A program made the position numbers and the translations under genes. Below, one piece after another: positions 6,454 through 49,497 of a stretch of DNA of 64,000 bases; the first letter of the stretch is position 1; each line of letters starts with the position of its first letter. Under the pieces are notes generated by a model. That model was not told where the DNA came from, did not search any database, and was given only the letters and a program-made list of their open reading frames with translations. The stretch comes from Patescibacteria group bacterium UBA926 (GTDB lineage Bacteria > Patescibacteriota > Doudnabacteria > UBA920), in contig DBDS01000004.1 of NCBI GenBank assembly GCA_002293685.1, positions 34,479 to 98,478 of the forward strand, in the 5' to 3' direction.

Positions 6454-6458
6454 AAATA

Positions 6459-7554: not shown

Positions 7555-7570
7555 CGAAAAAATCCCAATA

Positions 7571-7693: not shown

Positions 7694-7699
7694 TAGCCA

Positions 7700-7727: not shown

Positions 7728-7735
7728 AATTTTGA

Positions 7736-7933: not shown

Positions 7934-8121
7934 GATTGCAAACTTATTGATAAAGCAAATTTATAGATTTTAGAACTTGCTTTACGCAACTGTTCTAGAT
8001 GGAGCTCGACGATTTTTCCTAAAGATAAACTTGATAACCTAAGTATGGCATGTCTGATGGATTTTGTCCAGTGTGTTAATGGGAAATAGGGTTAGGAGGG
8101 AGAGGAAATAAATAGATTCTA

Positions 8122-21853: not shown

Positions 21854-22888
21854 TTATGGGTGAATGATTGCTAATACTTTAGGATCACTCATATCTAGAG
21901 TTCGAACTGTACGGACTCCTAGTCCAGCATAATTGTGTTCGCTGAAAGTGACTTTGGTACCTTCAACTTTTTCAATGTAACCAACGTGTCCATAGCGACT
22001 GTTTTCACTAGTTTGGATAATTGATCCAACTTTTGGTGTTTTGTTAACTGTCGCTCCTGCGCTCCTTGCGTTTTTAGCCCACATATTTGCGTTACCTCGC
22101 CAGTAGACTTTTACCTTACTCGCAACGTAGGCTGTACAATGCCCACGAGCAAACTTGTTACTACCAACGAATGCAGCTCTTGGTACAGATGGAGTGATTG
22201 CAGCAACTCTAGTTGAATTAGTCGGTGCTGGTTTAGGTGGTTCAGGAAGCTGACCACCTGGAACGATTAGGTAGCTACCTTTTTCCAGCACTGCATCAGG
22301 ACCATCTAGTCCGTTGTATGCAATCATTTTTTCTAGACTTGCCTGGTACTTACCAGCAACGTCATCAAGGGAAAGATCTGGGTTGCTAACATGGATTACA
22401 ATACCATCTACTGGTGGAATAATTAGATCCCAACCTGCTAGTAGAGCATTGTTTGGTAAACTATTTGTTTCGCGAATCGTTTTTGTTGAAACACCAAATT
22501 TTTCGGAAACAGTGTAAACTGTATCAAATGGCTGGGTCTTATAGATAGTAACTTGTCGCTCTACTAAACTTTTAACACTGTCCGGATTAGATTTGGTGAT
22601 ACCTGTATCATCAATTTGAATTTCTTCAGAATTAGGCAGATCTGTCTGGTCCCCAAGAACGCGAGGAGTCAATTGATCGAAGCTATTGGCATTAGCTTGA
22701 GAGAAAATACTATTATTAGCCACTTTAGTGCTAATGGTATTTTGTCGATCAGCTAACTGTGGGTTTAGATTGCTGTGATTGCGAAGTAATTGACTAGCTA
22801 AGCTACCGTCTTTGTGCTTGTAATCTGCTGATAAGGGATTAAAGATTATTACATTAATCGCTGCCGCTGTAATTACCACAATTCCCAC
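21854..22888 (-). CDS. CHAP-domain peptidoglycan hydrolase with LysM-like region and N-terminal TM helix
   Basis: The C-terminus ...ARGHCTAYVASKV...GHVGYIEKV shows a CHAP Cys/His arrangement. Confidence 0.65.
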   Translation of the reverse strand: MGIVVITAAAINVIIFNPLSADYKHKDGSLASQLLRNHSNLNPQLADRQNTISTKVANNSIFSQANANSFDQLTPRVLGDQTDLPNSEEIQIDDTGITKSNPDSVKSLVERQVTIYKTQPFDTVYTVSEKFGVSTKTIRETNSLPNNALLAGWDLIIPPVDGIVIHVSNPDLSLDDVAGKYQASLEKMIAYNGLDGPDAVLEKGSYLIVPGGQLPEPPKPAPTNSTRVAAITPSVPRAAFVGSNKFARGHCTAYVASKVKVYWRGNANMWAKNARSAGATVNKTPKVGSIIQTSENSRYGHVGYIEKVEGTKVTFSEHNYAGLGVRTVRTLDMSDPKVLAIIHP

Positions 22889-27373: not shown

Positions 27374-27739
27374 ATGTCTAATCAATTTGTACAAAAAATC
27401 GCTTCGGTGGTTTTAATTCTTGGGATATTTGTGAGCCTTTTTATGGCAGCGCAAACCGCGCGTGCACAAACCCAATCGCTGCCAATCACTCAACCATTTG
27501 GTGGAGCAATTTTATTTTCTGTTCCTCCATCACCTACTTGTGGAACAGCGCATACAATTATCTTTGATTTTAGATCAATGTCAGTTAGAGCAGTGGCACC
27601 TGTACCTTCTAGTAGAATTTATGAAAATCGGAATTTAACCACTCCTGGGACTTTTGTTTTGGGAAATTATACGAACACCCCGATACCTTGCTTGCTTCCA
27701 TATCCAATTTTTCCAATTTCTCAAGTAGGTACATCATAA
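27374..27739 (+). CDS. hypothetical secreted protein (signal peptide), first gene of the T4SS-like region
   Basis: 121-aa ORF with an N-terminal hydrophobic segment and AQTARA cleavage-like site. Confidence 0.4.
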   Translation: MSNQFVQKIASVVLILGIFVSLFMAAQTARAQTQSLPITQPFGGAILFSVPPSPTCGTAHTIIFDFRSMSVRAVAPVPSSRIYENRNLTTPGTFVLGNYTNTPIPCLLPYPIFPISQVGTS

Positions 27740-27740
27740 A

Positions 27741-28442
27741 ATGAAATTCGTTAAAACAAAAATACAACAGTACGGATTTACTGTTAACCACATCGCGTTA
27801 TTGGCTGTGGCTGTTTTGATTTTTGGAGCATTAGTCATTCCAAAGACAGGGCTTTCAATCACATCTGTATTCGGGAATGATGAACAACAACCGATGCTTA
27901 CTTACGATCAGATTCGTGGCGAGGTCTATGCTCAGATGGGCGTTGGTTCAGAAGATGCTTATATCCAAGAACTAGAAAACCAATTTGCATTATTAGATCG
28001 TGGTAGTACTGATGGTGCGGTGCTTGGAGAGATTATTGGTGTTGGTGAATTACCTGATCCCAACTCGTTGCATTTACCTGAGGTTGATGCCAAGTATCCA
28101 GCTCGTGTAATCAACGACAACTCTCCAACTTCCATCAGTGATTACCAAGATGCTGTAGCAGCTATCGAAACTCGAAATGGAGGAGCTCGTTTGTTCGCAC
28201 AACTTAGCACAGCAGATACAAACTTGCTAAATCAAAGCGTAGCTGGATTCAGCACAATCCTAAGTGAGATTTCACAATTGAACGTCCCAAGTAGCCAGCT
28301 TGAGATGCACAAGGTTCACTTATCTTATTATTACTCAATCATGAAGATGGCAGAAATTTACGCAGGTAGTGGAGATGAATCACAGCTACAGTTTTTCCTA
28401 ACTGTGATGATGAGCACTGGTAATAAGTTAAATTCATTTTAA
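27741..28442 (+). CDS. hypothetical membrane-anchored protein
   Basis: 233-aa ORF with an N-terminal TM helix, translationally coupled to the upstream gene. Confidence 0.4.
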   Translation: MKFVKTKIQQYGFTVNHIALLAVAVLIFGALVIPKTGLSITSVFGNDEQQPMLTYDQIRGEVYAQMGVGSEDAYIQELENQFALLDRGSTDGAVLGEIIGVGELPDPNSLHLPEVDAKYPARVINDNSPTSISDYQDAVAAIETRNGGARLFAQLSTADTNLLNQSVAGFSTILSEISQLNVPSSQLEMHKVHLSYYYSIMKMAEIYAGSGDESQLQFFLTVMMSTGNKLNSF

Positions 28443-28445
28443 AGT

Positions 28446-30422
28446 ATGAAATCTTTTTTTCTAAAAATTTCATCAGGAATTACTTTAACGGCGTTAATCG
28501 CTGCTTCTTTAATTTCTCCACAAACAGCTATTGCACAATTCTCTGGCACGGGACCAACCGTTCCTGTGAATGATTCACAGGTACTTGATTCTCTGGGATA
28601 CAACACTTCTTTATCGATCACAGGGGTGGTTTCGGAAGTGCAAACTGCGATCGCAGAAATCGCATCCTTGTGTAATGACATACTAGATACAGTTGAAGAC
28701 ACAGAAAATATTGCAAATTCCGTGAGTCGTTTTGAACAAGTGCTCAATGTAGCTATGAGCGTTATCGGCGGTAGTCCGGTAGAAGCAACAAAAGCATCTG
28801 TTCAGGCAGAACTCACACAAAGAAAGATCGATTGTGGTTATGCCTACCTCGAGGCATTAAATGAAATTGAACCAACCAGTTTAAATGATGCCAACCAATT
28901 GCAAAAAGCTGTGACTGAGGTTGCTACAGAATTAAATGCTCTTGAAACAAATTTAAAAAATCTGCAAGCACAGGCTAATGCAGGATGGAAAGATGTTGCA
29001 AAAGCGGTGATGGTAAGAACTTTACTTACAGTAAATAAGAACATCACCACAAAATTAGCCAATGAGTTAATCAATCGATATAAAATTGATGATTACTTGG
29101 CTTATGGCGATGCCGTGGCAACGCAAATTTATGCGATGAAGTATATCGATCAGAATTATCAGGGTGATGCTCGTACGCAAATGATGATGCGCTCGTTAAT
29201 TCAAAGCCCAAAAGCTCCAGAAAAAGCTCGGATAGCAGCGAACTTTGCAAATCAGCAAGCTAGAGAGTATATCGCTAATAGTTGTGGTAGTGCTGGGTCT
29301 TTAGATTCATCAAACAGAACTTCGCTAAATTGTTTAGCTGCTTATGGCGATGTTCAAGCTAGTCCAATGTTCAAGTATATGAACGCTTTGGACACAGCTA
29401 GTCAGATTAAGCTGCAAGCAGATAAAACAGCTCAAGCTGAGATAGCACAAAGCGCTGGTTATGCTCCGCCTCGTGACTGTAGTGGTTCTTTGTCTCAGCA
29501 ACAACAATTAGATTCGAGAATTCAAGCTGTATCGGCAGAGCGCGATGCTGCCGAAGCAGTACTAGTGAGATTACAACAAGCCTTGAAGCAAGGTCAGACA
29601 ACTCAAGCTGAAGTCGATAAAGCAGAAGCAGCTTTCTTTGCGGCAGACACAAAGTTAGTAGAATTACCGCAAGAGGTAAACTCCCCGGTAATTGATATTT
29701 GTAAAGCTATTGATTCACCGGCGTCATATTTGGGAAATCAGGTGAATGAATGGGTAAGTAATTTAACCAAACAATCTACAGACTTAAAGCAGGACAACTT
29801 ACCTTTCTACGCGAACTTTATCAGTGACATAGCAAGTAACTTCTTAACAAATTTATTGACTGGTGGTAAAAGTACTTCCCAAGTGTTTAAAGAAGCAGGG
29901 CTTCAAGCGATGGGTGCGGGGGTTGTCAGCTTGGGAAGTTTAACAAATAATAATAGCTCAGGCGGTGGACCTCTTACTTCACAAAGTTTAAGTGAGGGCG
30001 ATGTTCAAATTTATGCTCGTAGTGCAAACAGCACAGAGCGCATTAACGTGTTAATGAGCGGACAGTCTTATGTGTTAGTGATAGACTTCGCTGGGTTGAT
30101 AGCACGACCTGGTACAAATGAAGATCCTGTGTTCAATCCAGTGCGAGCAGTGGTTTCGGGTGGTAACTTTGAGGGAAGTAATAACTTCCAATTATCTCCA
30201 GCCGAATTAGCAGCTGGTCGCATTGAGTTAGATCTCACGAATGTAACGCAGTCATTTTCTATCAATGCTCAATTCTATGCTCGCGTGCAAGGTTCTGACA
30301 CCCCGTTGCGTGGTGGTGGGTGGACTCAATCGTTTGTAGTTGGAACGGTAGGTGGTGCAAAGACAGTGTTCTTCAATCCTCGAGGGGAAATGCCGAACAC
30401 AAGCACGTTCCGCATCCGATAA
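28446..30422 (+). CDS. hypothetical large secreted protein
   Basis: 658-aa ORF with a signal peptide and Ala/Gln-rich coiled-coil-like segments. Confidence 0.45.
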   Translation: MKSFFLKISSGITLTALIAASLISPQTAIAQFSGTGPTVPVNDSQVLDSLGYNTSLSITGVVSEVQTAIAEIASLCNDILDTVEDTENIANSVSRFEQVLNVAMSVIGGSPVEATKASVQAELTQRKIDCGYAYLEALNEIEPTSLNDANQLQKAVTEVATELNALETNLKNLQAQANAGWKDVAKAVMVRTLLTVNKNITTKLANELINRYKIDDYLAYGDAVATQIYAMKYIDQNYQGDARTQMMMRSLIQSPKAPEKARIAANFANQQAREYIANSCGSAGSLDSSNRTSLNCLAAYGDVQASPMFKYMNALDTASQIKLQADKTAQAEIAQSAGYAPPRDCSGSLSQQQQLDSRIQAVSAERDAAEAVLVRLQQALKQGQTTQAEVDKAEAAFFAADTKLVELPQEVNSPVIDICKAIDSPASYLGNQVNEWVSNLTKQSTDLKQDNLPFYANFISDIASNFLTNLLTGGKSTSQVFKEAGLQAMGAGVVSLGSLTNNNSSGGGPLTSQSLSEGDVQIYARSANSTERINVLMSGQSYVLVIDFAGLIARPGTNEDPVFNPVRAVVSGGNFEGSNNFQLSPAELAAGRIELDLTNVTQSFSINAQFYARVQGSDTPLRGGGWTQSFVVGTVGGAKTVFFNPRGEMPNTSTFRIR

Positions 30423-30546
30423 AAATTTAAAAATACCGTCGTTCGAAGCAATTCGGGCGGCGGTTTTTTGTTCACAGATTTAGCTTGGAGTTTGAGATGT
30501 GTATGTGGTATAATATTTACAAGATTTAGCGGTTAAAACACATTCT

Positions 30547-33500
30547 GTGACCACGAAACAAACATCAAATTTCCTCAATTTTTTGCTTAAATTTTTGAAA
30601 CAAAACCTACATAAAAGAAGCAAGCGGATTGTTCTCGCTTTCGACAAGTTGAGGCGGATTGTTCTAGCATCCCTCGTTGCTTTTTTGTTTGTTCCGGTCG
30701 TTGGTTATGCTCAAGGACCCTTACCACCATCACAAACACCTCCAATCAATCCAACTCCAACCAATAGTTCTACTTGTGATTTGACCAGATTATCTGATGC
30801 GAATGCCAAGGCTGATTATGTGTTTGCGCCATCTGAAAACACTCCAATCAATCCAGAACAGGTTTTTCAAATTGGTGTGAAAATTAGCAATATTACAGAC
30901 CAACAACTAGCAGCAGCTTGTTACCAGAGCCAAAATTTAAAAATTTCAGCTAAATTTTATTTGTATCAATGTCTTCCTCTTCTTGATTATATAGCCTGCA
31001 GTCAAGCTACTGGTCCTGCTCTATCTGAAGGGATTTTAGAAGGAACTGGAAAGGTGATCAAAGACTCGAGCGGTACAGCTATTGGAATCGGTGGTGTTTT
31101 TGCTCCCATGAAGCTTACGGACATAATGAAAACCAGAATTACTGGCGCTCCTTTTGATTTTTCTATCACCAATACCATTCTGAATAATTATTATGTATAT
31201 GTATATCCAGAAGTTTTAATTTCGGATATGAATAAGGTTGAAGTTCCGTTCAATGATACTTATGCATTTTGGAGACAAGTGACTGTGAGTGCACCAGTTG
31301 GTTCACCGGGCGCAGTTCCCCCGGAGTTTGCACCTGAGACTGAGAATACAGCAAATCCTGGAGCAGCTGGCACACTTTTCAACTTCATCCGAAGTGTAAT
31401 CGCTTACATTGTTTTATTATTGACCAGCTTTATTTATTACATATTTTCAATTATTTTAGTTCCGGTTTTGGTCGCACTGTTGCAGATTCAGGCGTACAAA
31501 GATAACTTTGTAAACTTTATTTACCCAGGTTGGGTTATCATCAGAAACATCTCGAATATCTTGTTCATAATCGCGCTGTTATGGATTGGGCTTCGTACTC
31601 TTTTCCAAGTTGATGACGCAAGCAAGAGTCGTAGCTTTATAGTTCGATTAATTTTAATGGCGTTGCTCGTTAACTTCAGTTTGGTAATTGGTCAAGCCAT
31701 TGTTGGTATAGCTGATACTGTTCAAGCCCAGTTTTTACCGAAAGATAGTAGGGTTGTTGAAGCTTTGGGTCATAAGTTGATGGTTGACCCGATTATCACT
31801 TTCCGTGGTGGTGCAGATCTTGATGCAAGCGGCAACTTCACCAGCAACTCGTTCGCAAGTGATTTACCAAAAGCAATTATCTTACTTGTTCTTGCGGTTG
31901 CAGCATTTTTTGCTTTCGTTGCACTAATAGCATTTATTTTTGTGCGACTAGGAATGTTATGGCTTTTATATATGTTGTCGCCGCTGGCGTATGTGGCGCA
32001 AATATTACCTGAAACTAAAGAGTATGGTAAAAAATGGTTTACCGAGTTTCTTCGCTATGCATTTGTTGTACCTATTTTAGCGTTTTTCTTAAATATGACC
32101 GCTCTAATAGCAGTTACTTTTTCTAGAACAAGTGGTGATCAGGTTCAAGTTGAAGGCTCTGGTACGACTGCGCTGGGAGGGTTAGTTCCTACGGGCGATG
32201 CGGCAGCGGGAATAGTAGAGTTTGCAGTCACTGTAATGTCTCACTTCATCGTTCTAGTTTTCTTGTTTGGCGGAATGGCCTTCGCTCAAAAATTTGGTGG
32301 TGTTGGTTCAAAACAAATTGTTTCATTCGCGAAGAAGGGCTTTGATGCTGTTACTAAGAGACCAGCAATGTGGGCAGCGCGAGGCGCTGGGAATTTGGCT
32401 AAAAGTTATGGAAAAGAACAGTATGAACGAAAAATTGCTGGTGGATTGTTAGATCCAAAAGCATGGAAAGAGGGTTGGAAAGGTAGAATTAGTACAGAGA
32501 CTAACACTCAGAAATCTAATCGTTTACTTAAGAAAGATGGTAAACTGAATCCCGGTATTGCGACCCAGTATATGGGAACTTCCTTAAAATATTTGTTTCA
32601 TAAAATGACCTTCGGTGCACCTCATCGATTACTCTCAGAAGCTGATAGACTAAAAGAGCAGGCAAGTATTTTTACTGAGAACGAGAGATTAGCCAAGGAA
32701 GTCAAGTTGGGAGAAAATCAATCTGTTAAGCAAATTTATGATGCATTTAAAACTGGAATACCGGAAACAGGGCCAATCAATGTTGCTGGATTATTGGGTA
32801 GTTTAGGAACCCAAATAACTGATTTTGAAAATCAAGGCAATTTAAAAGCAGATAATCTAGAGATAGAAGCCAATACCTTGGAGGCGAATGGAAATATGTC
32901 TGGAGCTGCAGCAAAAAGAGCAGAAGCAGCTTCAGTTTTACAAGAATATGAGGATAAAGTAAAAGAGTTAAATAAAGTTAAAGATAAACTTGATCCTGCG
33001 ACTAATGGTGGGGTAGATGTAAACTCTGATCCAGGTTTGCGTAAACAAATTTCCAATGACTTGGAAAAAAGTATTGAGGAGCTTGCAAAAAATATTGAGG
33101 ATTCTCAGAAACAAATTAAGGACAATAATGTTCTTAAGCAAAAGTACGGCGTAACGGGTGATTTACCTGAGTCAGAAAGAGAGAGATTAAGGAAACAGGC
33201 CGAGTCGTTAGAACAAAAAGCCAGTGAACGAAAACTTCCAGAATCTCTGGCAATAAGGGCTTTATTGAGAGAAGGGCAAAAGAAGGAAATGGAAAAATAT
33301 GATGGTGTTGATGACCCAGATGAACTAATTGCTATTCATAAAAAGGCTATGAAAGATAATAATCTTTTGTTAGCAACGGCAATTCAAAAAAAGTTAGCTA
33401 AGGAAGGCTTCTTTAAAGATCTTCTACAAAGTGAAGGTGGGCGAAATAATATTGAATCGATGCAGGCATTCTTTGCGAAGAATTTAAAGGGAATGGCTCC

Positions 33501-33930
33501 TAATGTTCGCATGCAGGTTATGTCAGAGGTAAGTTATCTTAATAAACAAAGCAATAACTTGGCGTTATCCAATGCCACCAAAATGGATGCTGAAACAGGT
33601 AGTCTGAGATTAGCCACCTTAGAAGAACAAGCCAAAAAGGTAAATGGATTCTTAGAGTCAAGAAATCCTAATGATTTATCAAATCTTAAAGCTGATCAGG
33701 TAGTTAGGGAAAGAGAAGATGGTAAGAATGAAATTTTTGGTGGTTATGTAAATGCAATGAAAAAGCATATGGAAAGTTTGTCTGCCATAGAATTCGATAA
33801 ATATGTTCCTAAAATTCCTACCAATGTAGCAAAAAAGGTGGCTAATGCTACTAACTTTGGAGATTTTAATCCACAAGGCACTGCGATAGGAAATAAGATT
33901 CAACAAGCTTTTAAGGATCGTGGGAAATAA
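30547..33930 (+). CDS. giant polytopic membrane protein, VirB6/TrbL-like candidate with long charged C-terminal tail
   Basis: 1127-aa ORF with about 7 TM helices in residues 280-560 and a K/E-rich coiled-coil C-terminus. It lies next to the VirB3/VirB4-like genes. Confidence 0.4.
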   Translation: MTTKQTSNFLNFLLKFLKQNLHKRSKRIVLAFDKLRRIVLASLVAFLFVPVVGYAQGPLPPSQTPPINPTPTNSSTCDLTRLSDANAKADYVFAPSENTPINPEQVFQIGVKISNITDQQLAAACYQSQNLKISAKFYLYQCLPLLDYIACSQATGPALSEGILEGTGKVIKDSSGTAIGIGGVFAPMKLTDIMKTRITGAPFDFSITNTILNNYYVYVYPEVLISDMNKVEVPFNDTYAFWRQVTVSAPVGSPGAVPPEFAPETENTANPGAAGTLFNFIRSVIAYIVLLLTSFIYYIFSIILVPVLVALLQIQAYKDNFVNFIYPGWVIIRNISNILFIIALLWIGLRTLFQVDDASKSRSFIVRLILMALLVNFSLVIGQAIVGIADTVQAQFLPKDSRVVEALGHKLMVDPIITFRGGADLDASGNFTSNSFASDLPKAIILLVLAVAAFFAFVALIAFIFVRLGMLWLLYMLSPLAYVAQILPETKEYGKKWFTEFLRYAFVVPILAFFLNMTALIAVTFSRTSGDQVQVEGSGTTALGGLVPTGDAAAGIVEFAVTVMSHFIVLVFLFGGMAFAQKFGGVGSKQIVSFAKKGFDAVTKRPAMWAARGAGNLAKSYGKEQYERKIAGGLLDPKAWKEGWKGRISTETNTQKSNRLLKKDGKLNPGIATQYMGTSLKYLFHKMTFGAPHRLLSEADRLKEQASIFTENERLAKEVKLGENQSVKQIYDAFKTGIPETGPINVAGLLGSLGTQITDFENQGNLKADNLEIEANTLEANGNMSGAAAKRAEAASVLQEYEDKVKELNKVKDKLDPATNGGVDVNSDPGLRKQISNDLEKSIEELAKNIEDSQKQIKDNNVLKQKYGVTGDLPESERERLRKQAESLEQKASERKLPESLAIRALLREGQKKEMEKYDGVDDPDELIAIHKKAMKDNNLLLATAIQKKLAKEGFFKDLLQSEGGRNNIESMQAFFAKNLKGMAPNVRMQVMSEVSYLNKQSNNLALSNATKMDAETGSLRLATLEEQAKKVNGFLESRNPNDLSNLKADQVVREREDGKNEIFGGYVNAMKKHMESLSAIEFDKYVPKIPTNVAKKVANATNFGDFNPQGTAIGNKIQQAFKDRGK

Positions 33931-34972
33931 AAACCTTATGCAATCAATAGATATGAGCACAATCAAAGATATTATCGCAACAAATGATGTCAGGGAGGCT
34001 GTCAGATTGTTGGTATTTTTAAAAAAATCTCCAAAGATTGAAATTGATCAAAATTTATTGATGCAACTTCAGTATGTACGAATGAATAGCTTAACCCCAT
34101 CTCGCCTATTAGATTTATTAAGAGCATCTGTATTAGCTTGTTATTCAATCCCAAATTCATTGCTTAGTGAGAAATTGAAGGAATACTTAATTCAACTTGA
34201 TAGTGTTCCAGAAGAAATTGATTTTTTTGAAAAATTTATAAAGTTATTGGAAACTGACGAAGAGTTGATTGCTAATTCAAAACTGGTTGTAAAAGGTCAG
34301 CCATTTATACCGTCAATTAAGAATTTTATTGCGGACTTTAATTCTTCTACAAATGATTTTTCAAATAAAGATGCTTTGGTGGAAATTCGATACTTCTCTA
34401 ATTCTCCTTATATCAATTCTTTGCCTGAGGAAAGAAAGTTCATAGCAAGGGATATTATAAAAAGTTATAATTATGCTAAATCATCATTGCAAGAGTGGAA
34501 TAGTATTCCTGAAATAAAATCTCCCGAAGAGAAAGCCAATATATTAAAGAACTTTGATTTATACAAGGCAATTCCGTGGTTAGAAGAATATTTAGAGGAA
34601 GAGATAGAAAATGAATCACAGACAGTCGCTCCGAAAACAATTTTTCAAACATCTCAGCCTACACAATCAACTCAAGTTACTCAACCTGTACAATCACAGC
34701 GGGTTATCCGAAATAACACACCACCTGTGGGGACAGACACTCAACAAGCAAAAATCGACCGTAATTTACAAGTGGGTTCAGATGAGAATGAATTTAAAAT
34801 CCCGCAACAACGAGATTTAGACTTGTCCCGTCAAGCAAAACGAGGATTAGTGTTTGATGAGCCAACTAATGTCGATTTAACGGAAGTCGCGAAACGTCGA
34901 GAAGAGGAACTAAAAAAACAAAGAGCTATCGATGAAAAATTAAACGCTCTTAAACAGCGTAAGCAGAAATAA
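33920..34972 (+). CDS. hypothetical protein
   Basis: 350-aa ORF overlapping the upstream stop. No motif recognised. Confidence 0.4.
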   Translation: MGNKNLMQSIDMSTIKDIIATNDVREAVRLLVFLKKSPKIEIDQNLLMQLQYVRMNSLTPSRLLDLLRASVLACYSIPNSLLSEKLKEYLIQLDSVPEEIDFFEKFIKLLETDEELIANSKLVVKGQPFIPSIKNFIADFNSSTNDFSNKDALVEIRYFSNSPYINSLPEERKFIARDIIKSYNYAKSSLQEWNSIPEIKSPEEKANILKNFDLYKAIPWLEEYLEEEIENESQTVAPKTIFQTSQPTQSTQVTQPVQSQRVIRNNTPPVGTDTQQAKIDRNLQVGSDENEFKIPQQRDLDLSRQAKRGLVFDEPTNVDLTEVAKRREEELKKQRAIDEKLNALKQRKQK

Positions 34973-34973: not shown

Positions 34974-35780
34974 ATGTCAGATCCAGTAAAAATTCAAAAG
35001 CTTACAAACTTGGTGGAAACCTCTACTATACTAAATGCTCAGGAAAAATCCGAGTGGCTTGCTTTGATGCAACTGATGAACGATAAGCAACTCTCAGAGC
35101 TTGAAGAAATTTTGAAGCCTGCCGCACCGAGCGTTACACCTGTTAGTAACAATAATCAAACTCAAGGTGTGAGCACACCTCCTTTGTCGCACATTAGCAA
35201 TCTACCTAGTCAGATGGTCGACCCGAGAATTAAGGCACGGCCTTTGGAGATGTTTCATTCCTCACAACCGGCTAAGCCAGCTGTGAAAACTCCAGTTCAA
35301 TCACCTCGCGTTCCTGAGCCACGACCACAGCCTAGAGTTCAAGCACCATCTCCTGTTATCTCTAAAGCTCAACCAATTACTCAACCAGTGCCTGTTGTTA
35401 GCTCACCTCAGAAACCACTTCAGACAGTTGCACCAAAGCCTGCATTTAACCCGGAGCCTGTAACCCCACCTACTCATGGACAAGTCAAAGTGGCACCGAC
35501 AATTCAATTAAGCTCGCTGGATGAAGCAAGTACATTAACATCCGCCGCGCTTCACGAGCAAACCAGGGAAGGTTTTTATAAGGCCATTATTGGTCTGGCA
35601 GAACAATTCGGTTATTTTCAAGTTTTATCCCAATTAGAACTAAGTCCTCTATATAAAGATTATTTGGTTTATGGAAAAGTAAGATTAAATGGTGGTCCGG
35701 ATGATAATTTACCTCTTTCACAAGAGGAGTTTGAGTTTGTTGCAGATTTGTTGACGGCGTTAAAAATTAACCGCGTTTAG
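34974..35780 (+). CDS. hypothetical proline-rich protein
   Basis: 268-aa ORF with a P/Q/V-rich central region. Confidence 0.4.
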   Translation: MSDPVKIQKLTNLVETSTILNAQEKSEWLALMQLMNDKQLSELEEILKPAAPSVTPVSNNNQTQGVSTPPLSHISNLPSQMVDPRIKARPLEMFHSSQPAKPAVKTPVQSPRVPEPRPQPRVQAPSPVISKAQPITQPVPVVSSPQKPLQTVAPKPAFNPEPVTPPTHGQVKVAPTIQLSSLDEASTLTSAALHEQTREGFYKAIIGLAEQFGYFQVLSQLELSPLYKDYLVYGKVRLNGGPDDNLPLSQEEFEFVADLLTALKINRV

Positions 35781-35893: not shown

Positions 35894-36349
35894 ATGCAAT
35901 TTCCTGTCCCACAATTTACCGACGTCGAAGATAAAATTATCGCAGGTCTAACCTTTAAACAATTCGCGATAGTTTTTGGGGCAGCTGTTTTCACTTTCAT
36001 AATTTATACAATCAGCAAAAACTTACCAATTACTATCGGAGTAGCAGTTTTTACAGGCATACCAGCACTCGCATTAGTGTTTGGAAAGTTGAATGGCCGC
36101 CCTTTATACTCTAGTGCTGGAAATTTTGTTCAATATCTTTTTGGCCCCAAAGTTTATATTTACCATAAAGAGGGAAAAGATTTTGGCTCAGAGTATACTC
36201 CAATTATAGTTGAGGAAAAAGTTGCACCTAAAGACTTGAAACAAACTGCTGTGAAAATCAAAGAACTAAATTATGTTTTGCAACAACAACAATCTGAGCA
36301 ATCAAAGTTAATAGATATGATTAAGCAAAACCGCGAACAATCTAAATAA
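35894..36349 (+). CDS. small two-TM membrane protein, PrgI/VirB3-like candidate
   Basis: 151-aa ORF with two adjacent TM helices, immediately upstream of the VirB4 N-domain gene. Confidence 0.4.
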   Translation: MQFPVPQFTDVEDKIIAGLTFKQFAIVFGAAVFTFIIYTISKNLPITIGVAVFTGIPALALVFGKLNGRPLYSSAGNFVQYLFGPKVYIYHKEGKDFGSEYTPIIVEEKVAPKDLKQTAVKIKELNYVLQQQQSEQSKLIDMIKQNREQSK

Positions 36350-36357
36350 ATAGTTCC

Positions 36358-37041
36358 ATGGAAACCAAAAGCAAAAAAACAGTCGGCTCACCAACTCAGC
36401 AATTTCTAAAGCTCTCAGAGATTAGAGATGATTTAATCGTGATGAACGATGGAACATTGCGCGCGGTACTCGCTGTTTCTTCAACGAACTTTGACTTGAA
36501 GAGCGAAGAAGAACAGAACGCTCTAATCTATAGTTATCAAAGATTTTTGAATTCTTTAGAGTTTCATATTCAAATTGTTGTTCAATCTAGAAAAATGGAT
36601 ATTGCCGAGTACATGAGCAAGCTAAAAGTTTTAGCCGAAAAGCAAACCAATGAGTTACTTCGAATGCAAACCCAGGAGTACATCGAGTTCATTGATCGTT
36701 TGGTTGAATCGGCCAACGTAATGAACAAAGATTTCTACGTAATCGTTCCTTATACTACCAGCATTACCCCAGCGTCCACTGGAATATTTGGAAAGTTATT
36801 TGGTACAGGCCAATCTAAGCAAGTAGCCGATAGGGAAGCTAATCTAGCAAACGGTCGCAAGCAACTTGATGAGCGAGCAAATACTGTAGCCGCATCCTTA
36901 TCTAGTAGCGGTTTGCGCGTGGTTAGACTGGGAACTGATCAATTAATCGAACTTGTTTATAATTCTTATAATTTTGCAGCTGGCCCAAGCATAGATGCTA
37001 GTCAATTAGAAAAAGTTACTATTAAAGACTTACGAAATTAA
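36358..37041 (+). CDS. VirB4/TrbE/CagE N-terminal domain protein (first part of a split VirB4)
   Basis: The pattern LSEIRDDLIVMNDGTLRAVLAVSSTNFDLKSEEEQ resembles the VirB4 N-terminal domain. The stop at 37041 is followed 2 nt later by the ATG of the ATPase ORF. Confidence 0.5.
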   Translation: METKSKKTVGSPTQQFLKLSEIRDDLIVMNDGTLRAVLAVSSTNFDLKSEEEQNALIYSYQRFLNSLEFHIQIVVQSRKMDIAEYMSKLKVLAEKQTNELLRMQTQEYIEFIDRLVESANVMNKDFYVIVPYTTSITPASTGIFGKLFGTGQSKQVADREANLANGRKQLDERANTVAASLSSSGLRVVRLGTDQLIELVYNSYNFAAGPSIDASQLEKVTIKDLRN

Positions 37042-37043
37042 TT

Positions 37044-38891
37044 ATGTCTTTATTTTCAATCAATAAATCAGAATTAGATAAGAAAAAGTCCGAACTCGAG
37101 CATCTTAAAGGTCAAATTTCTGCTGACAGTAAGCTAGTTGAAGTTGAAAAGCAGTACCGTGAAGGTGTTACAACTCTGCGTGATTTACTCGCACCTGCTT
37201 CACTAAAATTTACTAATTCTTATTTCGAACTTAACGGCAAATTTGGTCGTAGCTTTTTTGTACTCGCATATCCACGATTCCTATCCTCAAACTGGCTTTC
37301 ATTTATTATCAATTCCGAGAGTGCTTTAGACGTTTCGATGTACATTTATCCAATTGATTCTGGGATGGTACTAAAAAAGCTTAAGAGTAAGATTGGAGAA
37401 ATTGGTTCACAGATTACGATTGAGCAAGAAAAAGGCCTTGCTCGAAATCCACTTTTAGAAACTGCTTATCACGACGTAGAAGAACTTCGAGATGAACTTC
37501 AGCAAGGCACAGAGCACTTCTTCCGTTTTGCATTGTACTTCACTTTGTATTCAGATTCTTTGGATGAGTTAGATAAAAACTCGAAAATTTTAGAAAGCGC
37601 ATTGGGTGCAAAGTTAGTTGTGACTAAACGCGCATTGTTAGCTGTTGAAGCAGGATTTAATTCTACTTTACCTTTAGGTGTAGACGAATTAGATGTGGCG
37701 AGTAATTTAAACACCAGTCCGTTGTCGAGCACTTTTCCATTCGTGTCTTCAGATTTAACTGGAAACGACGGAATCCTTTATGGAATCAATCGTCATAACA
37801 ACAGTTTGATTTTGTTTGATAGATTCCAAATGGAGAATGCTAATTTTGTGATTTTTGCAAAATCTGGAGCAGGAAAATCTTATGCTGTTAAATTAGAAAT
37901 CCTTCGTTCGTTGATGGTCGGCATTGATGTAATAGTCATTGATCCAGAAAATGAGTATCAGCATTTGGCAGAAGCTGTTGGGGGTACTTATATTAATATT
38001 TCTCTTAACTCAGATTTCCGAATTAATCCTTTTGATTTACCGATTGGCATGGAAGATGAAGACAAAGCAGATATTTTACGCAGCGCCGTTATTAATTTAG
38101 TGGGTTTGATGGGATTGGTTTTAGGTAAACTCGATCCAACCGAAGAAGCGATACTAGACAAAGCTCTCTGGGCAACATATGCCAAAAAAGATATCACTGA
38201 AAATTCTGATTACGCCACCGTTGAAATGCCAATTATGAGTGATCTAATCGAAGTTTTAGCAGGAATGGTTGGGGGTGAGAGCTTGGCGCAACGCTTAGGT
38301 AAATTTACCGAAGGAACTTTTGCAGGATTGCTTAACAATCAAACCAACGTAGTTTTAAAAAATCAATTGTTAGTATTTTCGATTCGAGATTTAGAAGATT
38401 CGCTTCGCCCAATCGCGATGTATATTATCCTTGGTCATATATGGAATGTGGTTCGTAGTGAACTTAAAAAACGAATTATGGTTTTGGACGAAGCTTGGAT
38501 CATGATGCAACATGAAGACTCAGCTCGTTTCGTATTTGGTATCGCTAAGCGTGCGCGTAAGTATTACTTGGGTCTTACCACAATCACTCAGGACGTCGCT
38601 GATTTTATGGCCAGTCCATATGGAAAACCAATTGTGACTAATTCTTCAATTCAATTGCTTCTTAAACAAAGCCCTGCCGCAATTGAAATTGTGCAAGAAA
38701 CTTTTTTCCTTACTGAAGGAGAAAAATATTTGTTGCTCGAAAGTGATGTGGGAGAAGGAATTTTCTTCGCTGGATTAAAGCACGCTGCAATAAAAATTTA
38801 TGCATCGTATGTTGAAGACCAAATTATTACAACCGACCCGAAACAATTATTAGAAATCGAACAAAGTAAGGAAGAATTATCTGAGCAGTAA
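37044..38891 (+). CDS. virB4: VirB4-family type IV secretion ATPase (C-terminal/ATPase part)
   Basis: Walker A FAKSGAGKSY, Walker B VLDEAW, and VirB4-specific regions. Confidence 0.8.
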   Translation: MSLFSINKSELDKKKSELEHLKGQISADSKLVEVEKQYREGVTTLRDLLAPASLKFTNSYFELNGKFGRSFFVLAYPRFLSSNWLSFIINSESALDVSMYIYPIDSGMVLKKLKSKIGEIGSQITIEQEKGLARNPLLETAYHDVEELRDELQQGTEHFFRFALYFTLYSDSLDELDKNSKILESALGAKLVVTKRALLAVEAGFNSTLPLGVDELDVASNLNTSPLSSTFPFVSSDLTGNDGILYGINRHNNSLILFDRFQMENANFVIFAKSGAGKSYAVKLEILRSLMVGIDVIVIDPENEYQHLAEAVGGTYINISLNSDFRINPFDLPIGMEDEDKADILRSAVINLVGLMGLVLGKLDPTEEAILDKALWATYAKKDITENSDYATVEMPIMSDLIEVLAGMVGGESLAQRLGKFTEGTFAGLLNNQTNVVLKNQLLVFSIRDLEDSLRPIAMYIILGHIWNVVRSELKKRIMVLDEAWIMMQHEDSARFVFGIAKRARKYYLGLTTITQDVADFMASPYGKPIVTNSSIQLLLKQSPAAIEIVQETFFLTEGEKYLLLESDVGEGIFFAGLKHAAIKIYASYVEDQIITTDPKQLLEIEQSKEELSEQ

Positions 38892-38898: not shown

Positions 38899-39055
38899 GT
38901 CATTCTGAACAAAGCAACTTCATCATTCTGAGCTCTTCGAAGAATCTACCTCTGTCATTCTGAAGCCGTAGGCTGAAGAATCCAATAATTAGAGATCCTT
39001 CGCTTCGCCCGCCAAAATCCCTTTGAGATTTAGGCGGATTACGCTCAGGATGGCA
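38899..39055. repeat. GC-rich element E8: three tandem GTCATTCTGA(A/G) sub-units plus a CGCCAAAATCCCTTTGAGATTTAGGCGGA module
   Basis: Read directly from the sequence. The CGCCAAAATC...GAGATTTAGGCGGA module also occurs inside the rsmA insert at 26085-26125. Confidence 0.85.
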
Positions 39056-40015
39056 TCTCCTAACATGTTACTTCTAGACTCCACAAACTTTAATGCATCC
39101 GATTCAAACGAATCTCTCTCAGACGAGAGAGATTCTTTTGTTGGTAATGATCAAGAACAAGACGGGGATCGTGAAGAGTTAAAAGCAAAAGCTAAGCAAA
39201 ATGCACTGTCCCGGTTGAGCGCACCTAAACCATTAAATTTGAATCAGCGTGTGCCAGGTTCGCAAGGTTCAAGTAGTTCGATGGGTGGCGTTGGTAAACC
39301 AGGAATTGCTAAACAAAAACTTGGCCGTGACCCACAGAAACTTTCTGGATATGGTGGAGCTGGAGGCCCTTCTGCAATGAAATCTTCAGGAGTAGGTAAT
39401 ACCAAGTCTTCGATGGGAAAAGCAAAGACTTCATCTGTGAAAAAGGGTGGTAAGGGTGATGCAGTCAATGCTGTTAAAGATGTGGCAAATCAGGTGCCTG
39501 TTATTGGTCAAAAAGTTTCTGCAAAAATTGCAAGCTTGCAAGAAGACGAGGGACGCTTGATAGGATTTTTGCTCTGGGTTATTTGGGGATTGCTATCAAT
39601 TGCTGGATTGATTGTTTCCATTAGTATAGTTGGGATAGTTATTGCGGCCCCAGTCATTTTAATCTTTAATTTATTATTGATTTCACCTCGGCTAGTTTAT
39701 AGACTCACGGTCTGGATATTAGATTTATTTGGGATTGGTGAATTCCTGCAAGGAGCTGAAAAGTCAGGAATTATTGATAAACATACAATTAGAATCGGTG
39801 GTTTCGAAAAAACCACTATAATTTTATTTGATATCTTGCTCTTCATCGGAATTGTCCTGATGTTGGTGATGTTTGTTTACTTCTCATGTTGGTTAGGTGA
39901 GCAGACAGGAGTATTGGGTACAGGTTTTGCAAAGGTGGTATTAACCGGTTATGACTGGTGGAATGGAACTGAATACGCATCTATAGTAGATCAAGTCTGC
40001 GGGCTTGTAAATTAA
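39023..40015 (+). CDS. hypothetical membrane protein (G/S/K-rich N-terminus, 4-5 TM helices at C-terminus); start uncertain
   Basis: The called TTG start lies inside element E8. Alternative ATG starts are at 39048 and 39066. Confidence 0.4.
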   Translation: MRFRRITLRMASPNMLLLDSTNFNASDSNESLSDERDSFVGNDQEQDGDREELKAKAKQNALSRLSAPKPLNLNQRVPGSQGSSSSMGGVGKPGIAKQKLGRDPQKLSGYGGAGGPSAMKSSGVGNTKSSMGKAKTSSVKKGGKGDAVNAVKDVANQVPVIGQKVSAKIASLQEDEGRLIGFLLWVIWGLLSIAGLIVSISIVGIVIAAPVILIFNLLLISPRLVYRLTVWILDLFGIGEFLQGAEKSGIIDKHTIRIGGFEKTTIILFDILLFIGIVLMLVMFVYFSCWLGEQTGVLGTGFAKVVLTGYDWWNGTEYASIVDQVCGLVN

Positions 40016-47712: not shown

Positions 47713-48297
47713 TTATAATTTTCTGATGTTGTTGTCGAACAGTTCTTTAAGTTTACTGATAGCACGGTGTTGGATAACTCTGATCGCGCCTTCGGTCTTG
47801 TTTAAGATTTGAGCAATAGTTGAGTTGTCGAGTTCTTCGAGGAACTTCATTTTGATTACCGTTTGCTGTTCATCATTTAACTCTTTGAGAAGTTTAATTA
47901 AGATACTTTGTTCAATTTGTAGATTTATGATTTCTACAACATTAGTTTCGTATTCAAGGGTATTCTCTATTGCATCCAACGGAACCAATTGCTTTTTTTT
48001 GCGGTAATAATCAATTACTAGGTTTCTGGCTATTTGGAATAACCAACCTTCGAAAGCTTCAATCTTTTCTAAGTTTTTTAAACTATTGAAAGCTTTTATG
48101 AAAGTGTCTTCCGTGATGTCTTCAGCGGTTTCTCTATGAGAAACACGATAGTAAACAAAGCGATAAACTCTCATAAAGTAAGCCTCGTAAATATCCGAAA
48201 GAGCTTCTTGCTTACCAGCCTGGGCTTGTGTGATGAGTCTTGTGAGACTGCCAGCTGGCAAATCCGTCATATTACTGATGTTGGTTTGAGAGTTCAT
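47713..48297 (-). CDS. ECF-type RNA polymerase sigma-70 family factor
   Basis: Region 2 (YRFVYYRVSHRETAEDITEDTFIKAF) and region 4 HTH (LNDEQQTVIKMKFLEELDNSTIAQIL). Confidence 0.85.
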   Translation of the reverse strand: MNSQTNISNMTDLPAGSLTRLITQAQAGKQEALSDIYEAYFMRVYRFVYYRVSHRETAEDITEDTFIKAFNSLKNLEKIEAFEGWLFQIARNLVIDYYRKKKQLVPLDAIENTLEYETNVVEIINLQIEQSILIKLLKELNDEQQTVIKMKFLEELDNSTIAQILNKTEGAIRVIQHRAISKLKELFDNNIRKL

Positions 48298-48810: not shown

Positions 48811-49497
48811 TTAGTCTTGAGCAATAGCGATACACCAAACAGATTTTACGCCTGCGCGCTTTAAAACAATAGTTGCTTCTAAAAAAGTTGAGCCTGTGGT
48901 TGTGATGTCATCAACCAAAATCACTTGCTTTGGGATTGGTCCCAAACTGACACTGAAAGCACTTCTCAAATTGGAAGCCCTTTGTTCTTTATTTAATTCT
49001 TTTTGTTGGCGAGTGGCTTTGGGTTTTACCAGAATATTATCTACAGCTAAACTGAAATGTTTGGATAACACTCTGGCGATTAACTCAGCTTGATTGAAAC
49101 CTCGCCATCTAGCTTTACTTTTAGTTTGGGGAATAGGGCATAGTATGTATTTCCAAATCTGCTCATCACGTATTTTTATTTTACGAGCTGCTATAAAAGC
49201 CAAATCAGAAAAAATTTCAGGAACCAAACCAGACTTCCCGGTGTTGATTAAGCTACTTACCACTTTGGAGTGGTAATCAAAAATTGAAATTAAGCGTTCA
49301 GGTGCATACCTCTTTTTGCATTTTGGATGAGTCCATCCACTTAAACTAGGTTTTTGGCACACAATACATCTTTGAAAAGTTTGAACTTTCAAACCACTTT
49401 CACACTCACTACAGATAAAATTCCCCCAAGTTCTGCAACTGAAGCATTGTTTTGGGAATATTAAATCCTTAATCATGATTTCAATTTCATCAAACAT
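48811..49497 (-). CDS. comFC: ComF-family protein (double zinc-ribbon plus phosphoribosyltransferase domain)
   Basis: N-terminal Cys clusters, and VILVDDITTTGSTFLEA PRT motif. Confidence 0.75.
   Translation of the reverse strand: MFDEIEIMIKDLIFPKQCFSCRTWGNFICSECESGLKVQTFQRCIVCQKPSLSGWTHPKCKKRYAPERLISIFDYHSKVVSSLINTGKSGLVPEIFSDLAFIAARKIKIRDEQIWKYILCPIPQTKSKARWRGFNQAELIARVLSKHFSLAVDNILVKPKATRQQKELNKEQRASNLRSAFSVSLGPIPKQVILVDDITTTGSTFLEATIVLKRAGVKSVWCIAIAQD

What the first reader, a model, noticed from the sequence alone, without database searches (positions are those of the whole stretch)
36358..38891. VirB4 is encoded as two adjacent ORFs (227-aa N-domain plus 615-aa ATPase) separated by a stop and 2 nt
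Seen in sequence:
- ORF 36358-37041 resembles the VirB4/TrbE N-terminal domain.
- It ends TAA at 37041 and is followed by ATG at 37044.
- The 37044-38891 ORF carries the Walker A/B ATPase.
- Together they total 842 aa, a normal VirB4 length.

Inference: one of three things. It may be a natural gene fission that is translationally coupled. It may be a recent nonsense mutation (pseudogenisation). It may be a recoding event.
Basis: partly seen in the sequence, partly recalled or inferred. Interest (0 to 1): 0.6.

Follow-up and report, generated by a model that had tools for sequence, protein, structure and literature searches.

The report
Conserved two-gene VirB4 (TrsD plus ATPase)
The secretion-machine ATPase VirB4 really is encoded here as two tightly packed genes, but this is an ancient, conserved and already published arrangement (a TrsD-like protein plus a shortened VirB4), seen across Patescibacteria and Gram-positive plasmids, not a mutation or recoding event.

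Summary
ORF1 (36358-37041, 227 aa) ends in TAA. Two bases later ORF2 (37044-38891, 615 aa, Walker A/B) starts, in a different frame.

ORF1 matches only the N-terminal positions of VirB4 profiles, and ORF2 matches the positions after them. An AlphaFold model of ORF1 (pLDDT 87) has R388 TrwK/VirB4 as its best structural match by two methods.

The split is neither recent nor recoded:
- More than 2000 homologues of ORF1 exist. 149 of the 150 best cluster representatives are short, stand-alone proteins.
- In all 41 related Patescibacteria loci that carry both genes, ORF1 has its own stop codon.
- The junctions are operon-type (ATGA, TAATG, +1, +2), and all three relative frames occur.

Staphylococcal plasmid pSK41 has the same module: trsC, trsD (also 227 aa), trsE. 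ORF2 and TrsE begin at the same aligned position. Other Firmicutes and Actinomycetota plasmids carry PrgI, an ORF1-like gene and a DUF87 ATPase in the same order.

Quinonero-Coronel et al. 2025 (PMC12102498) already report TrsD as the most abundant T4SS component in Patescibacteria. They describe it as remotely homologous to the VirB4 N-terminus, usually next to virB4, and essential in Southlakia epibionticum.

Verdict: real, ordinary and already known, so low interest.

The parts
30435..30464 (+). Terminator-like hairpin (13 pairs, then a T-run) that probably closes the upstream unit and marks the 5' limit of the T4SS operon
   Evidence: Consensus scan. This is a pattern match only.
30547..33930 (+). 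VirB6/TrbL-like polytopic membrane protein with a long C-terminal extension (1127 aa)
   Evidence: Pfam PF04610 TrbL, E 2.9e-6, 27.7 bits against a cut-off of 25.9, residues 341-531.
33920..34972 (+). Operon gene of unknown function (350 aa)
   Evidence: No Pfam or NCBIfam match. It overlaps the preceding gene by 11 nt.
34974..35780 (+). Operon gene of unknown function (268 aa, Pro/Gln-rich middle)
   Evidence: No Pfam or NCBIfam match. It starts 1 nt after the previous stop.
35894..36349 (+). PrgI-family (VirB3-like) small membrane protein, 151 aa
   Evidence: Pfam PF12666 PrgI, E 5e-9, 37 bits against a cut-off of 27. A PrgI-like gene lies directly upstream of the ORF1 homologue in at least 72 of 80 related loci.
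36358..37041 (+). ORF1: TrsD-like protein, the detached first part of the VirB4 N-terminal domain (227 aa)
37039..37046 (+). Junction TAA-tt-ATG: ORF1 stop, 2-nt spacer, ORF2 start in the +2 frame
   Evidence: Read directly. The identical TAATTATG junction is seen in L021, L044, L052, L068 and L070. The other junctions are ATGA, TAATG or +1.
37044..38891 (+). ORF2: VirB4-family ATPase lacking the first N-terminal subdomain (615 aa). Residues 1-236 are the rest of the N-terminal domain; residues 237-596 are the RecA-like C-terminal domain.
   Evidence: NCBIfam CD1110-family VirB4, E 9e-105, above the cut-off. PDB 4ag5 VirB4 C-terminal domain, E 2.8e-43, on residues 237-596; TrwK 302-735 on residues 141-563. 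It aligns from residue 14 with pSK41 TrsE residue 7.
37857..37880 (+). Walker A motif (AKSGAGKS)
38475..38492 (+). Walker B motif (IMVLDE)
39110..39135 (+). Terminator-like hairpin (11 pairs, then TTTTGTT) about 220 nt after the ORF2 stop; probable operon end
   Evidence: Consensus scan. This is a pattern match only.

Best explanation
[quoted passage not shown] The VirB4 ATPase is made as two polypeptides.

ORF1 is a TrsD-like protein. It corresponds to roughly the first 180-200 residues of a full-length VirB4, which is the first half of the N-terminal domain. ORF2 carries the second half of the N-terminal domain plus the RecA-like ATPase domain.

Both genes sit in one operon: VirB6-like, two unknown genes, PrgI/VirB3-like, TrsD-like, VirB4. 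The 2-nt TAA-tt-ATG junction most likely couples their translation, through re-initiation by the terminating ribosome, so that the two pieces are made in matched amounts.

The pieces are inferred to re-associate non-covalently into a complete VirB4 N-terminal domain. ORF1 is inferred to be the part that the VirB3-like PrgI protein wraps around, docking the ATPase hexamer to the membrane channel.

Shown here:
- homology of each piece, and collinear, non-overlapping coverage of VirB4 profiles;
- the VirB4-like fold of ORF1;
- conservation of the split and of the break point;
- operon geometry.

Inferred, not shown:
- physical re-association of the two pieces;
- binding of ORF1 to PrgI;
- translational coupling.
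For: 1. Complementary profile coverage. ORF1 covers CD1110 positions 2-120, TIGR00929 19-180 and PRK13853 17-176. ORF2 covers CD1110 158-728 and TIGR00929 215-724. There is no profile-level similarity between the ORF1 family and ORF2 residues 1-236 (hhalign probability 0.1%), so ORF1 is a missing piece and not a duplicate.

3. Conservation.
- 2017 homologues were found; the best 120 are all 225-240 aa.
- 149 of the 150 best 50%-cluster representatives are 157-478 aa.
- In 41 of 41 loci with both genes, ORF1 has its own stop. The gaps cluster at -4, -1, +1 and +2 nt, and all three relative frames occur.
- Both proteins stay conserved as divergence grows. ORF1/ORF2 identity to the window is 85/96% in L001, 66/88% in L021 and 42/58% in L049.

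4. A rare covalent fusion, P0237 (898 aa), carries the two parts in the same order, joined by a Pro/Ala-rich linker. ORF1 4-205 aligns to its residues 5-208 and ORF2 38-605 to its residues 323-892.

5. The same module occurs elsewhere.
- pSK41: a 135-aa gene at the trsC position, then trsD (227 aa), then trsE (672 aa). ORF2 and TrsE have equivalent N-termini.
- The order PrgI, ORF1-like gene, DUF87 ATPase is found in plasmid records of Pontibacillus, Geobacillus, C. perfringens, C. difficile, B. thuringiensis and Miltoncostaea.

6. Literature.
- PMC12102498 describes TrsD as the most abundant T4SS component in Patescibacteria, remotely homologous to the VirB4 N-terminus. 1664 of 2272 homologues lie next to virB4, and the homologue in S. 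epibionticum is essential.
- PMC9259494: VirB3 wraps around the VirB4 N-terminal domain (TrwK residues 15-400).

7. PrgI stays adjacent to the ORF1 homologue in at least 72 of 80 loci, including loci where VirB4 is not adjacent. This fits a PrgI-TrsD contact.
Against: - No experiment or complex prediction here shows that ORF1 binds ORF2 or PrgI.
- ORF1 scores far below the curated cut-off of the TrsD/TraD NCBIfam model (30.7 bits against 200). Its link to pSK41 TrsD is only remote (hhalign probability 77%).
- In 39 of the 80 related loci, no VirB4 gene was found in the flank held. In 19 of these the full 4-kb downstream flank was available; in the rest the contig ends sooner. They are labelled Peribacteria, Peregrinibacteria, Gracilibacteria and similar. 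Tight co-translation is therefore not obligatory for the family.
- There is no Shine-Dalgarno motif before ORF2. That is uninformative, because only 7 of 48 long ORFs in the window have one.
- The direction of evolution (one fission, several fissions, or an ancestral split with later fusions) is not resolved.
Confidence: 0.82

Rival explanations
1. ORF1 is an independent accessory protein. It shares ancestry and fold with the VirB4 N-terminus but works mainly with PrgI/VirB3, for example as a membrane-proximal adaptor or regulator. ORF2 is then a self-sufficient, N-terminally shortened VirB4.
For: - In 39 of 80 related loci, no VirB4 gene was found in the flank held. In 19 of them the full 4-kb downstream flank was available. 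A PrgI-like gene was detected directly upstream of the ORF1 homologue in 31 of the 39.
- ORF1 evolves faster than ORF2.
Against: - ORF2 lacks profile positions 1-157 (CD1110) or 1-214 (TIGR00929), which is exactly the region ORF1 supplies.
- The ORF1 family is not similar to the ORF2 N-terminus.
- A fused form exists in the same order.
- In 25 of 41 loci the two genes overlap or are separated by at most 2 nt.
- This rival differs from the best explanation only in how obligatory the ORF1-ORF2 contact is.
Confidence: 0.13
2. A programmed -1/+2 ribosomal frameshift near the TAA produces a single 842-aa VirB4 from the two ORFs.
For: ORF2 is in the +2 frame only 2 nt after the stop. The junction is A/T-rich.
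Against: - Among 41 related loci, ORF2 lies in all three frames relative to ORF1 (22, 13 and 6 loci).
- Spacers range from a 4-nt overlap to 240 and 448 nt. There is therefore no conserved frame relation or slippery site.
- ORF2 begins with its own ATG at the position where pSK41 TrsE also begins.
Confidence: 0.02
3. A recent nonsense or frameshift mutation (pseudogenisation), or a sequencing or assembly error, split a formerly intact virB4.
For: None beyond the adjacency itself.
Against: - An identical 227-aa protein is on record from 11 contigs in several archives (P0001).
- Homologues down to about 37% identity keep the same length and their own stop codon.
- The same break point is present in pSK41 TrsD/TrsE.
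Confidence: 0.01

Closest known systems
TrsD homologue plus VirB4 of the Patescibacteria T4SS (Quinonero-Coronel et al. 2025, PMC12102498; the essential T4SS cluster SEML1_0006-0019 of Ca. Southlakia epibionticum, Wang et al. 2023, PMC10633639)
   Same: - Same phylum: the identical protein is annotated 'Patescibacteria group bacterium'.
- Same components: VirB6-like, PrgI/VirB3-like, TrsD-like and VirB4.
- The TrsD homologue lies directly upstream of virB4.
- The locus is chromosomal, and no relaxase or coupling protein was seen in the operon.
   Different: Nothing substantive; this locus is one more instance. The paper does not describe the junction geometry, the fold of the TrsD-like protein, or the exact break point. 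Those details are added here.
TrsD/TraD plus TrsE/TraE of staphylococcal conjugative plasmids pSK41/pGO1 (NCBIfam NF041427)
   Same: - Same gene order: a gene at the trsC (VirB3-like) position, then trsD, then trsE.
- TrsD is 227 aa, the same length as ORF1.
- ORF2 and TrsE start at equivalent positions: residue 14 aligns with residue 7, E 1e-36.
- The ORF1 family profile aligns with TrsD over 166 columns.
   Different: - Similarity is only remote: 30.7 bits against the family cut-off of 200.
- pSK41 is a conjugative plasmid with a relaxase and a VirD4-like coupling protein. The locus here is chromosomal and lacks both.
- The intergenic gap is 14 nt in pSK41 and 2 nt here.
Full-length VirB4 (R388 TrwK, PDB 7o41/7o42/7o43/8rtb/8rtd; Agrobacterium VirB4; CD1110-family VirB4)
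   Same: - ORF1 and ORF2 together tile the profile.
- ORF1 has the fold of part of TrwK.
- ORF2 141-563 aligns with TrwK 302-735.
- Walker A and Walker B motifs are present.
   Different: It is one polypeptide in TrwK and two here. The break lies inside the N-terminal domain (TrwK residues 15-400 per PMC9259494), not between the N- and C-terminal domains.
VirB3-VirB4 fusion proteins (e.g. Campylobacter plasmids, cited in PMC12102498) and the SCO6880 family of Actinobacteria (NF042935)
   Same: They show that the VirB3 / VirB4 N-terminal / ATPase modules are shuffled by fusion and fission. The PrgI-like protein, ORF1 and ORF2 hit SCO6880 profile positions 11-78, 239-299 and 363-477 of 477, in that order.
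   Different: Those are fusions, or splits at other boundaries. The SCO6880 hits are all weak (E 3e-4 to 3e-3, below the cut-off of 60 bits) and were not followed up.

Membership tests
VirB4/TraC/TrbE/CagE T4SS ATPase (ORF2) | Score above the curated family cut-off | tested here: met
   NF045971 (CD1110-family VirB4): 351.5 bits against a cut-off of 325, E 9.4e-105.
VirB4/TraC/TrbE/CagE T4SS ATPase (ORF2) | RecA-like C-terminal domain with Walker A and Walker B motifs, homologous to a solved VirB4 C-terminal domain | tested here: met
   4ag5 at E 2.8e-43 on residues 237-596. AKSGAGKS at 272-279 and IMVLDE at 478-483.
VirB4/TraC/TrbE/CagE T4SS ATPase (ORF2) | Complete N-terminal domain on the same polypeptide | tested here: not met
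   ORF2 starts at profile position 158 of 752 (CD1110) and 215 of 792 (TIGR00929). ORF1 supplies the missing part.
VirB4/TraC/TrbE/CagE T4SS ATPase (ORF2) | Encoded among other T4SS genes (VirB3-like, VirB6-like) | tested here: met
   PrgI at 35894-36349 and TrbL/VirB6-like at 30547-33930.
VirB4 N-terminal domain (ORF1) | Sequence matches the N-terminal positions of VirB4 profiles | tested here: met
   VirB4_plasma 97-237, E 2.9e-11. PRK13853 17-176, E 1.2e-5. CD1110 2-120, E 1.7e-5. TIGR00929 19-180, E 3.9e-5.
VirB4 N-terminal domain (ORF1) | Fold matches a solved VirB4 structure | tested here: met
   [not shown]
TrsD/TraD family (NCBIfam NF041427) | Score above the curated cut-off (200 bits) | tested here: not met
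   30.7 bits, E 2.5e-7. This is remote homology only, so ORF1 is TrsD-like and not a member of the narrow NCBIfam subfamily.
TrsD/TraD family (NCBIfam NF041427) | Small stand-alone protein encoded between a VirB3-like gene and a shortened VirB4 gene | tested here: met
   Window order: PrgI, ORF1, ORF2. pSK41 order: a 135-aa gene, trsD (227 aa), a 672-aa DUF87 gene. Same break point.
TrsD/TraD family (NCBIfam NF041427) | Profile-level homology to a bona fide TrsD | tested here: inconclusive
   hhalign of A1 against pSK41 TrsD: probability 77%, E 2e-5, 166 columns, collinear. BLASTP E 6e-5 over 43 residues.
Pfam PF26593 | Match to the Pfam model | not testable with these tools
   All 120 listed homologues, including the identical P0001, carry PF26593.2 in the precomputed annotation. 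The local Pfam scan did not return this model for ORF1. Its name could not be looked up.
Programmed ribosomal frameshift or readthrough gene | Conserved frame relation and conserved recoding site across relatives | tested here: not met
   Relative frames are 22, 13 and 6 loci. Spacers run from -4 to +448 nt.
Pseudogene (recently disrupted virB4) | Intact single gene in close relatives, with the disruption confined to this lineage | tested here: not met
   The gene is split in 41 of 41 loci. 149 of the 150 best cluster representatives are short.

The most novel reading that the evidence does not exclude
The TrsD-like protein is not just a detached piece of VirB4. It would be a separable adaptor whose primary partner is PrgI/VirB3. 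Splitting it off would let the cell control when, or in what stoichiometry, the ATPase docks onto the membrane channel. For example, only 'central' VirB4 subunits would receive a TrsD-PrgI anchor.

The hint for this is that in loci labelled Peribacteria, Peregrinibacteria and Gracilibacteria the gene pair PrgI + TrsD-like stays together without a VirB4 gene nearby. In the five full-flank loci that gave rRNA matches, the pair sits convergent to the 5S-23S end of an rRNA operon.

If true, the split would be a regulatory feature of a T4SS that is essential for epibiotic life.
Probability: 0.15. Interest if true: 0.45.

Novelty: already known. Interest (0 to 1): 0.15.

Why it matters
For genome annotation, the pair should be called 'TrsD-like VirB4 N-terminal subunit' plus 'VirB4 ATPase', not a disrupted virB4. 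Tools that flag adjacent fragments as pseudogenes would be wrong here.

Biologically, the Patescibacteria T4SS is the first T4SS reported to be essential for the bacterium that carries it (PMC12857230, PMC10633639), and TrsD has no assigned function (PMC12102498). The added details suggest a concrete role for TrsD: it completes the VirB4 N-terminal domain and provides the surface that VirB3/PrgI binds. Those details are:
- ORF1 has the TrwK N-terminal fold.
- ORF1 and ORF2 coverage of VirB4 is exactly complementary.
- The break point is shared with pSK41 TrsD/TrsE.
- Adjacency to PrgI is conserved.

This is a modest refinement of published knowledge, not a discovery.

Tried and rejected
- PDB sequence searches with ORF1 alone and with a 60-sequence profile found nothing meaningful (best E 0.3-0.5 to unrelated proteins). 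The link to VirB4 needed family profiles and fold comparison.
- The local Pfam scan gave ORF1 only a sub-threshold DUF2299 hit, although precomputed annotations list PF26593 for the family.
- The phrase 'split VirB4' is in no held paper.
- The main text of Guglielmini et al. 2014 does not contain 'TrsD'. The attribution of the TrsD/VirB4 N-terminus homology to that paper therefore rests on the citation in PMC12102498.
- I considered that ORF1 might be a duplicate of a subdomain still present in ORF2. A BLASTP alignment of ORF1 33-184 with ORF2 44-230 looked suggestive, but its E-value is 0.52 and profile-profile comparison gives probability 0.1%. Rejected.
- I considered predicting an ORF1+ORF2 (+PrgI) complex by concatenation.
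- I ran no further search on ORF2. The 41 loci already give its length range (about 603-667 aa).
Full report
**1. The observation**

ORF1 runs from ATG 36358 to TAA 37039-37041 (227 aa). After two bases (tt), ATG 37044 opens ORF2, which ends at 38891 (615 aa). ORF2 is in the +2 frame relative to ORF1. ORF2 carries Walker A (AKSGAGKS, 37857-37880) and Walker B (IMVLDE, 38475-38492).

**2. What the two proteins are**

ORF2 passes the curated cut-off of the CD1110-family VirB4 model (351.5 bits against 325, E 9e-105). It covers only profile positions 158-728 of 752, and positions 215-724 of 792 in TIGR00929.

ORF1 hits the missing N-terminal positions of the same models:
- CD1110 2-120;
- TIGR00929 19-180;
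- PRK13853 17-176;
- VirB4_plasma 97-237.

ORF1 also hits the stand-alone TrsD/TraD family, at E 2.5e-7 but well below that family's cut-off.

Against solved structures, ORF2 237-596 aligns with the crystallised VirB4 C-terminal domain 4ag5 (E 2.8e-43). ORF2 141-563 aligns with TrwK 302-735. Macé et al. give the TrwK N-terminal domain as residues 15-400 (PMC9259494). The break therefore lies inside the N-terminal domain, not at the boundary between domains.

ORF1 has no sequence-level PDB hit. An AlphaFold model built on 60 homologues is confident (pLDDT 87, pTM 0.76), and its best structural matches are VirB4:
- Foldseek: the top 14 hits are all R388 TrwK chains (probability 0.99-1.0, TM 0.45-0.54). 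The next hit has probability 0.14.

The ORF1 family shows no profile similarity to the N-terminal 236 residues of ORF2 (hhalign probability 0.1%). ORF1 is therefore a complementary piece and not a paralogous copy.

**3. Is the split recent, recoded or conserved?**

It is conserved.
- The 5.8-billion-protein search found 2017 homologues of ORF1. The best 120, down to 64% identity, are all 225-240 aa. One is identical and on record from 11 contigs.
- The exhaustive search of 50% cluster representatives gave 2353 hits. 149 of the best 150 are 157-478 aa.
- The one long protein, P0237 (898 aa), is a collinear fusion. ORF1 4-205 aligns to its residues 5-208 and ORF2 38-605 to its residues 323-892, joined by a Pro/Ala-rich linker.

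A scan of one genome per species returned 234 relatives, and 80 loci were kept, all from Patescibacteria MAGs. Forty-one of these loci hold both genes. In each of them the ORF1 homologue ends at its own stop codon. Junctions are typical of operons:
- a 4-nt ATGA overlap (7 loci);
- a 1-nt TAATG overlap (6 loci);
- +1 (6 loci);
- +2, TAATTATG as here (6 loci);
- larger gaps up to 240 and 448 nt.

ORF2 lies in all three frames relative to ORF1 (22, 13 and 6 loci). This excludes a recent nonsense mutation and any conserved recoding signal.

ORF1 diverges faster than ORF2, but both stay conserved. Identity to the window is 85/96% in L001, 66/88% in L021 and 42/58% in L049.

**4. The same architecture elsewhere**

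pSK41 encodes, in order, a 135-aa gene at the trsC position, trsD (227 aa, 'TrsD/TraD family conjugative transfer protein') and a 672-aa DUF87 ATPase (TrsE).
- ORF2 aligns with TrsE from residue 14 to residue 7 onward (E 1e-36), so the break point is shared.
- The ORF1 family profile aligns collinearly with TrsD over 166 columns (E 2e-5, probability 77%).

tblastn against plasmids found ORF1-like genes between a PrgI-family gene and a DUF87/VirB4 gene of 620-660 aa in plasmid records of Pontibacillus, Geobacillus, Clostridium perfringens, Clostridioides difficile, Bacillus thuringiensis and the actinomycete Miltoncostaea. A variant occurs on a haloarchaeal plasmid.

**5. Literature**

Quinonero-Coronel et al. 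2025 (PMC12102498) report the following:
- 1664 of these homologues are associated with VirB4. Gracilibacteria are the notable exception.
- The homologue in Ca. Southlakia epibionticum is listed as essential. The essential T4SS cluster is described by Wang et al. 2023 (PMC10633639).

The finding is therefore already described at the level of the family and its gene neighbourhood.

**6. Context in the window**

A terminator-like hairpin at 30435-30464 precedes the operon. The operon holds a VirB6/TrbL-like gene (30547-33930), two genes without family matches, PrgI (35894-36349), ORF1 and ORF2. A strong hairpin with a T-run follows at 39110-39135.

Shine-Dalgarno motifs are rare in this genome: 7 of 48 long ORFs have one. 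Several genes have a TATAAT box just upstream of the ATG. The absence of a Shine-Dalgarno motif before ORF2 is therefore uninformative.

**7. Mechanism**

Shown here:
- the two genes are adjacent and apparently co-transcribed;
- each piece is homologous to a distinct, contiguous part of VirB4;
- ORF1 has the VirB4 fold;
- the arrangement and the break point are ancient.

Inferred:
- the 2-nt junction gives termination-reinitiation coupling;
- the two polypeptides re-associate to form a complete VirB4 N-terminal domain;
- ORF1 provides the surface contacted by PrgI/VirB3.

The last inference rests on two points. In R388, VirB3 wraps around the VirB4 N-terminal domain (PMC9259494). And a PrgI-like gene stays immediately upstream of the ORF1 homologue in at least 72 of 80 loci.

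In 39 of the 80 loci no VirB4 gene was found in the flank held. The full 4-kb downstream flank was available in 19 of them. Eight of those full-flank loci were searched against Rfam. Five (L028, L030, L032, L036, L063) have a convergent 5S-23S rRNA operon just downstream of the ORF1 homologue.

**8. Verdict**

The feature is a normal instance of a published arrangement, so interest is low. The residual open question is what TrsD does. The structural and collinearity evidence here points to 'first half of the VirB4 N-terminal domain, VirB3-binding', but that needs a complex structure or interaction data.

Noticed in passing
L028, L030, L032, L036, L063 (for example L028 4996-5110 5S and 5254-8252 23S, minus strand): In MAGs labelled Peribacteria, Peregrinibacteria, Gracilibacteria and similar, the PrgI-like + TrsD-like gene pair has no VirB4 gene within 4 kb. 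In these five loci it is followed directly by a convergent 5S-23S rRNA operon. Many other contigs end about 0.4-1.5 kb after the TrsD-like gene, as expected for assembly breaks at rRNA. PMC12102498 notes the Gracilibacteria exception but, in the passages read, not the rRNA neighbourhood.
   Followed up: partly
P0237 (898 aa): This is the only long protein among the 150 best representatives. It is a collinear TrsD-like + VirB4 fusion joined by a Pro/Ala-rich linker of about 110 aa. Whether it is a true secondary fusion or a frameshift or gene-calling artefact could not be checked, because no genomic context is available.
   Followed up: partly
P0125, P0130, P0257, P0258: Many stand-alone TrsD-like proteins carry long low-complexity Pro/Gln/Ala-rich tails of 100-220 aa at the N- or C-terminus. 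The window protein has none.
   Followed up: no
L086 (Salinibaculum sp. KK48 plasmid, locus 517-3744 and 3786-6317): On a haloarchaeal plasmid the ORF1-like region lies near the C-terminus of a 1075-aa protein, directly upstream of an 843-aa DUF87 ATPase. Haladaptatus and Natrinema plasmids also gave hits. The module therefore extends to archaea in a different domain arrangement.
   Followed up: no
window 35894-38891 against NCBIfam NF042935 (SCO6880 family, 477 positions): PrgI, ORF1 and ORF2 hit SCO6880 profile positions 11-78, 239-299 and 363-477, in order. All three hits are weak (E 3e-4 to 3e-3, below the cut-off). This hints that the actinobacterial SCO6880 protein is a VirB3 + whole VirB4 N-terminal-domain fusion, split from its ATPase at a different boundary.
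   Followed up: no
window, start regions of genes at 19837, 23477, 41492 (+) and 48811-49497, 47713-48297, 8122-9390 (-): Only 7 of 48 long ORFs have a Shine-Dalgarno-like motif. Several have a TATAAT-like box 6-12 nt before the ATG, which suggests widespread leaderless or very short-leader mRNAs in this genome.
   Followed up: no
window 39023-40015: The mechanically listed TTG start of this 330-aa membrane-protein ORF lies upstream of the strong terminator-like hairpin at 39110-39135. The real start is probably further downstream.
   Followed up: no
L003 4683-7301: In this close relative the ORF2 homologue reads on to 872 aa. The match to ORF2 covers only residues 1-594. This could be a C-terminal fusion with the downstream gene or a lost stop codon.
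   Followed up: no
L045 2442-3899 and L053 2969-3958: The PrgI-like genes upstream of the TrsD-like gene are greatly enlarged here (485 aa and 329 aa, against 151 aa in the window).
   Followed up: no
[not shown]
   Followed up: no
window 27374-30422 and 21854-22888 (-): Three genes without family matches lie just upstream of the operon terminator: 121 aa with a signal-peptide-like N-terminus, 233 aa with one N-terminal hydrophobic segment, and 658 aa with a signal-peptide-like N-terminus. A LysM + CHAP peptidoglycan hydrolase lies nearby at 21854-22888. They might be further T4SS components (pilin-like, VirB8-like, VirB1-like). This was not tested.
   Followed up: no
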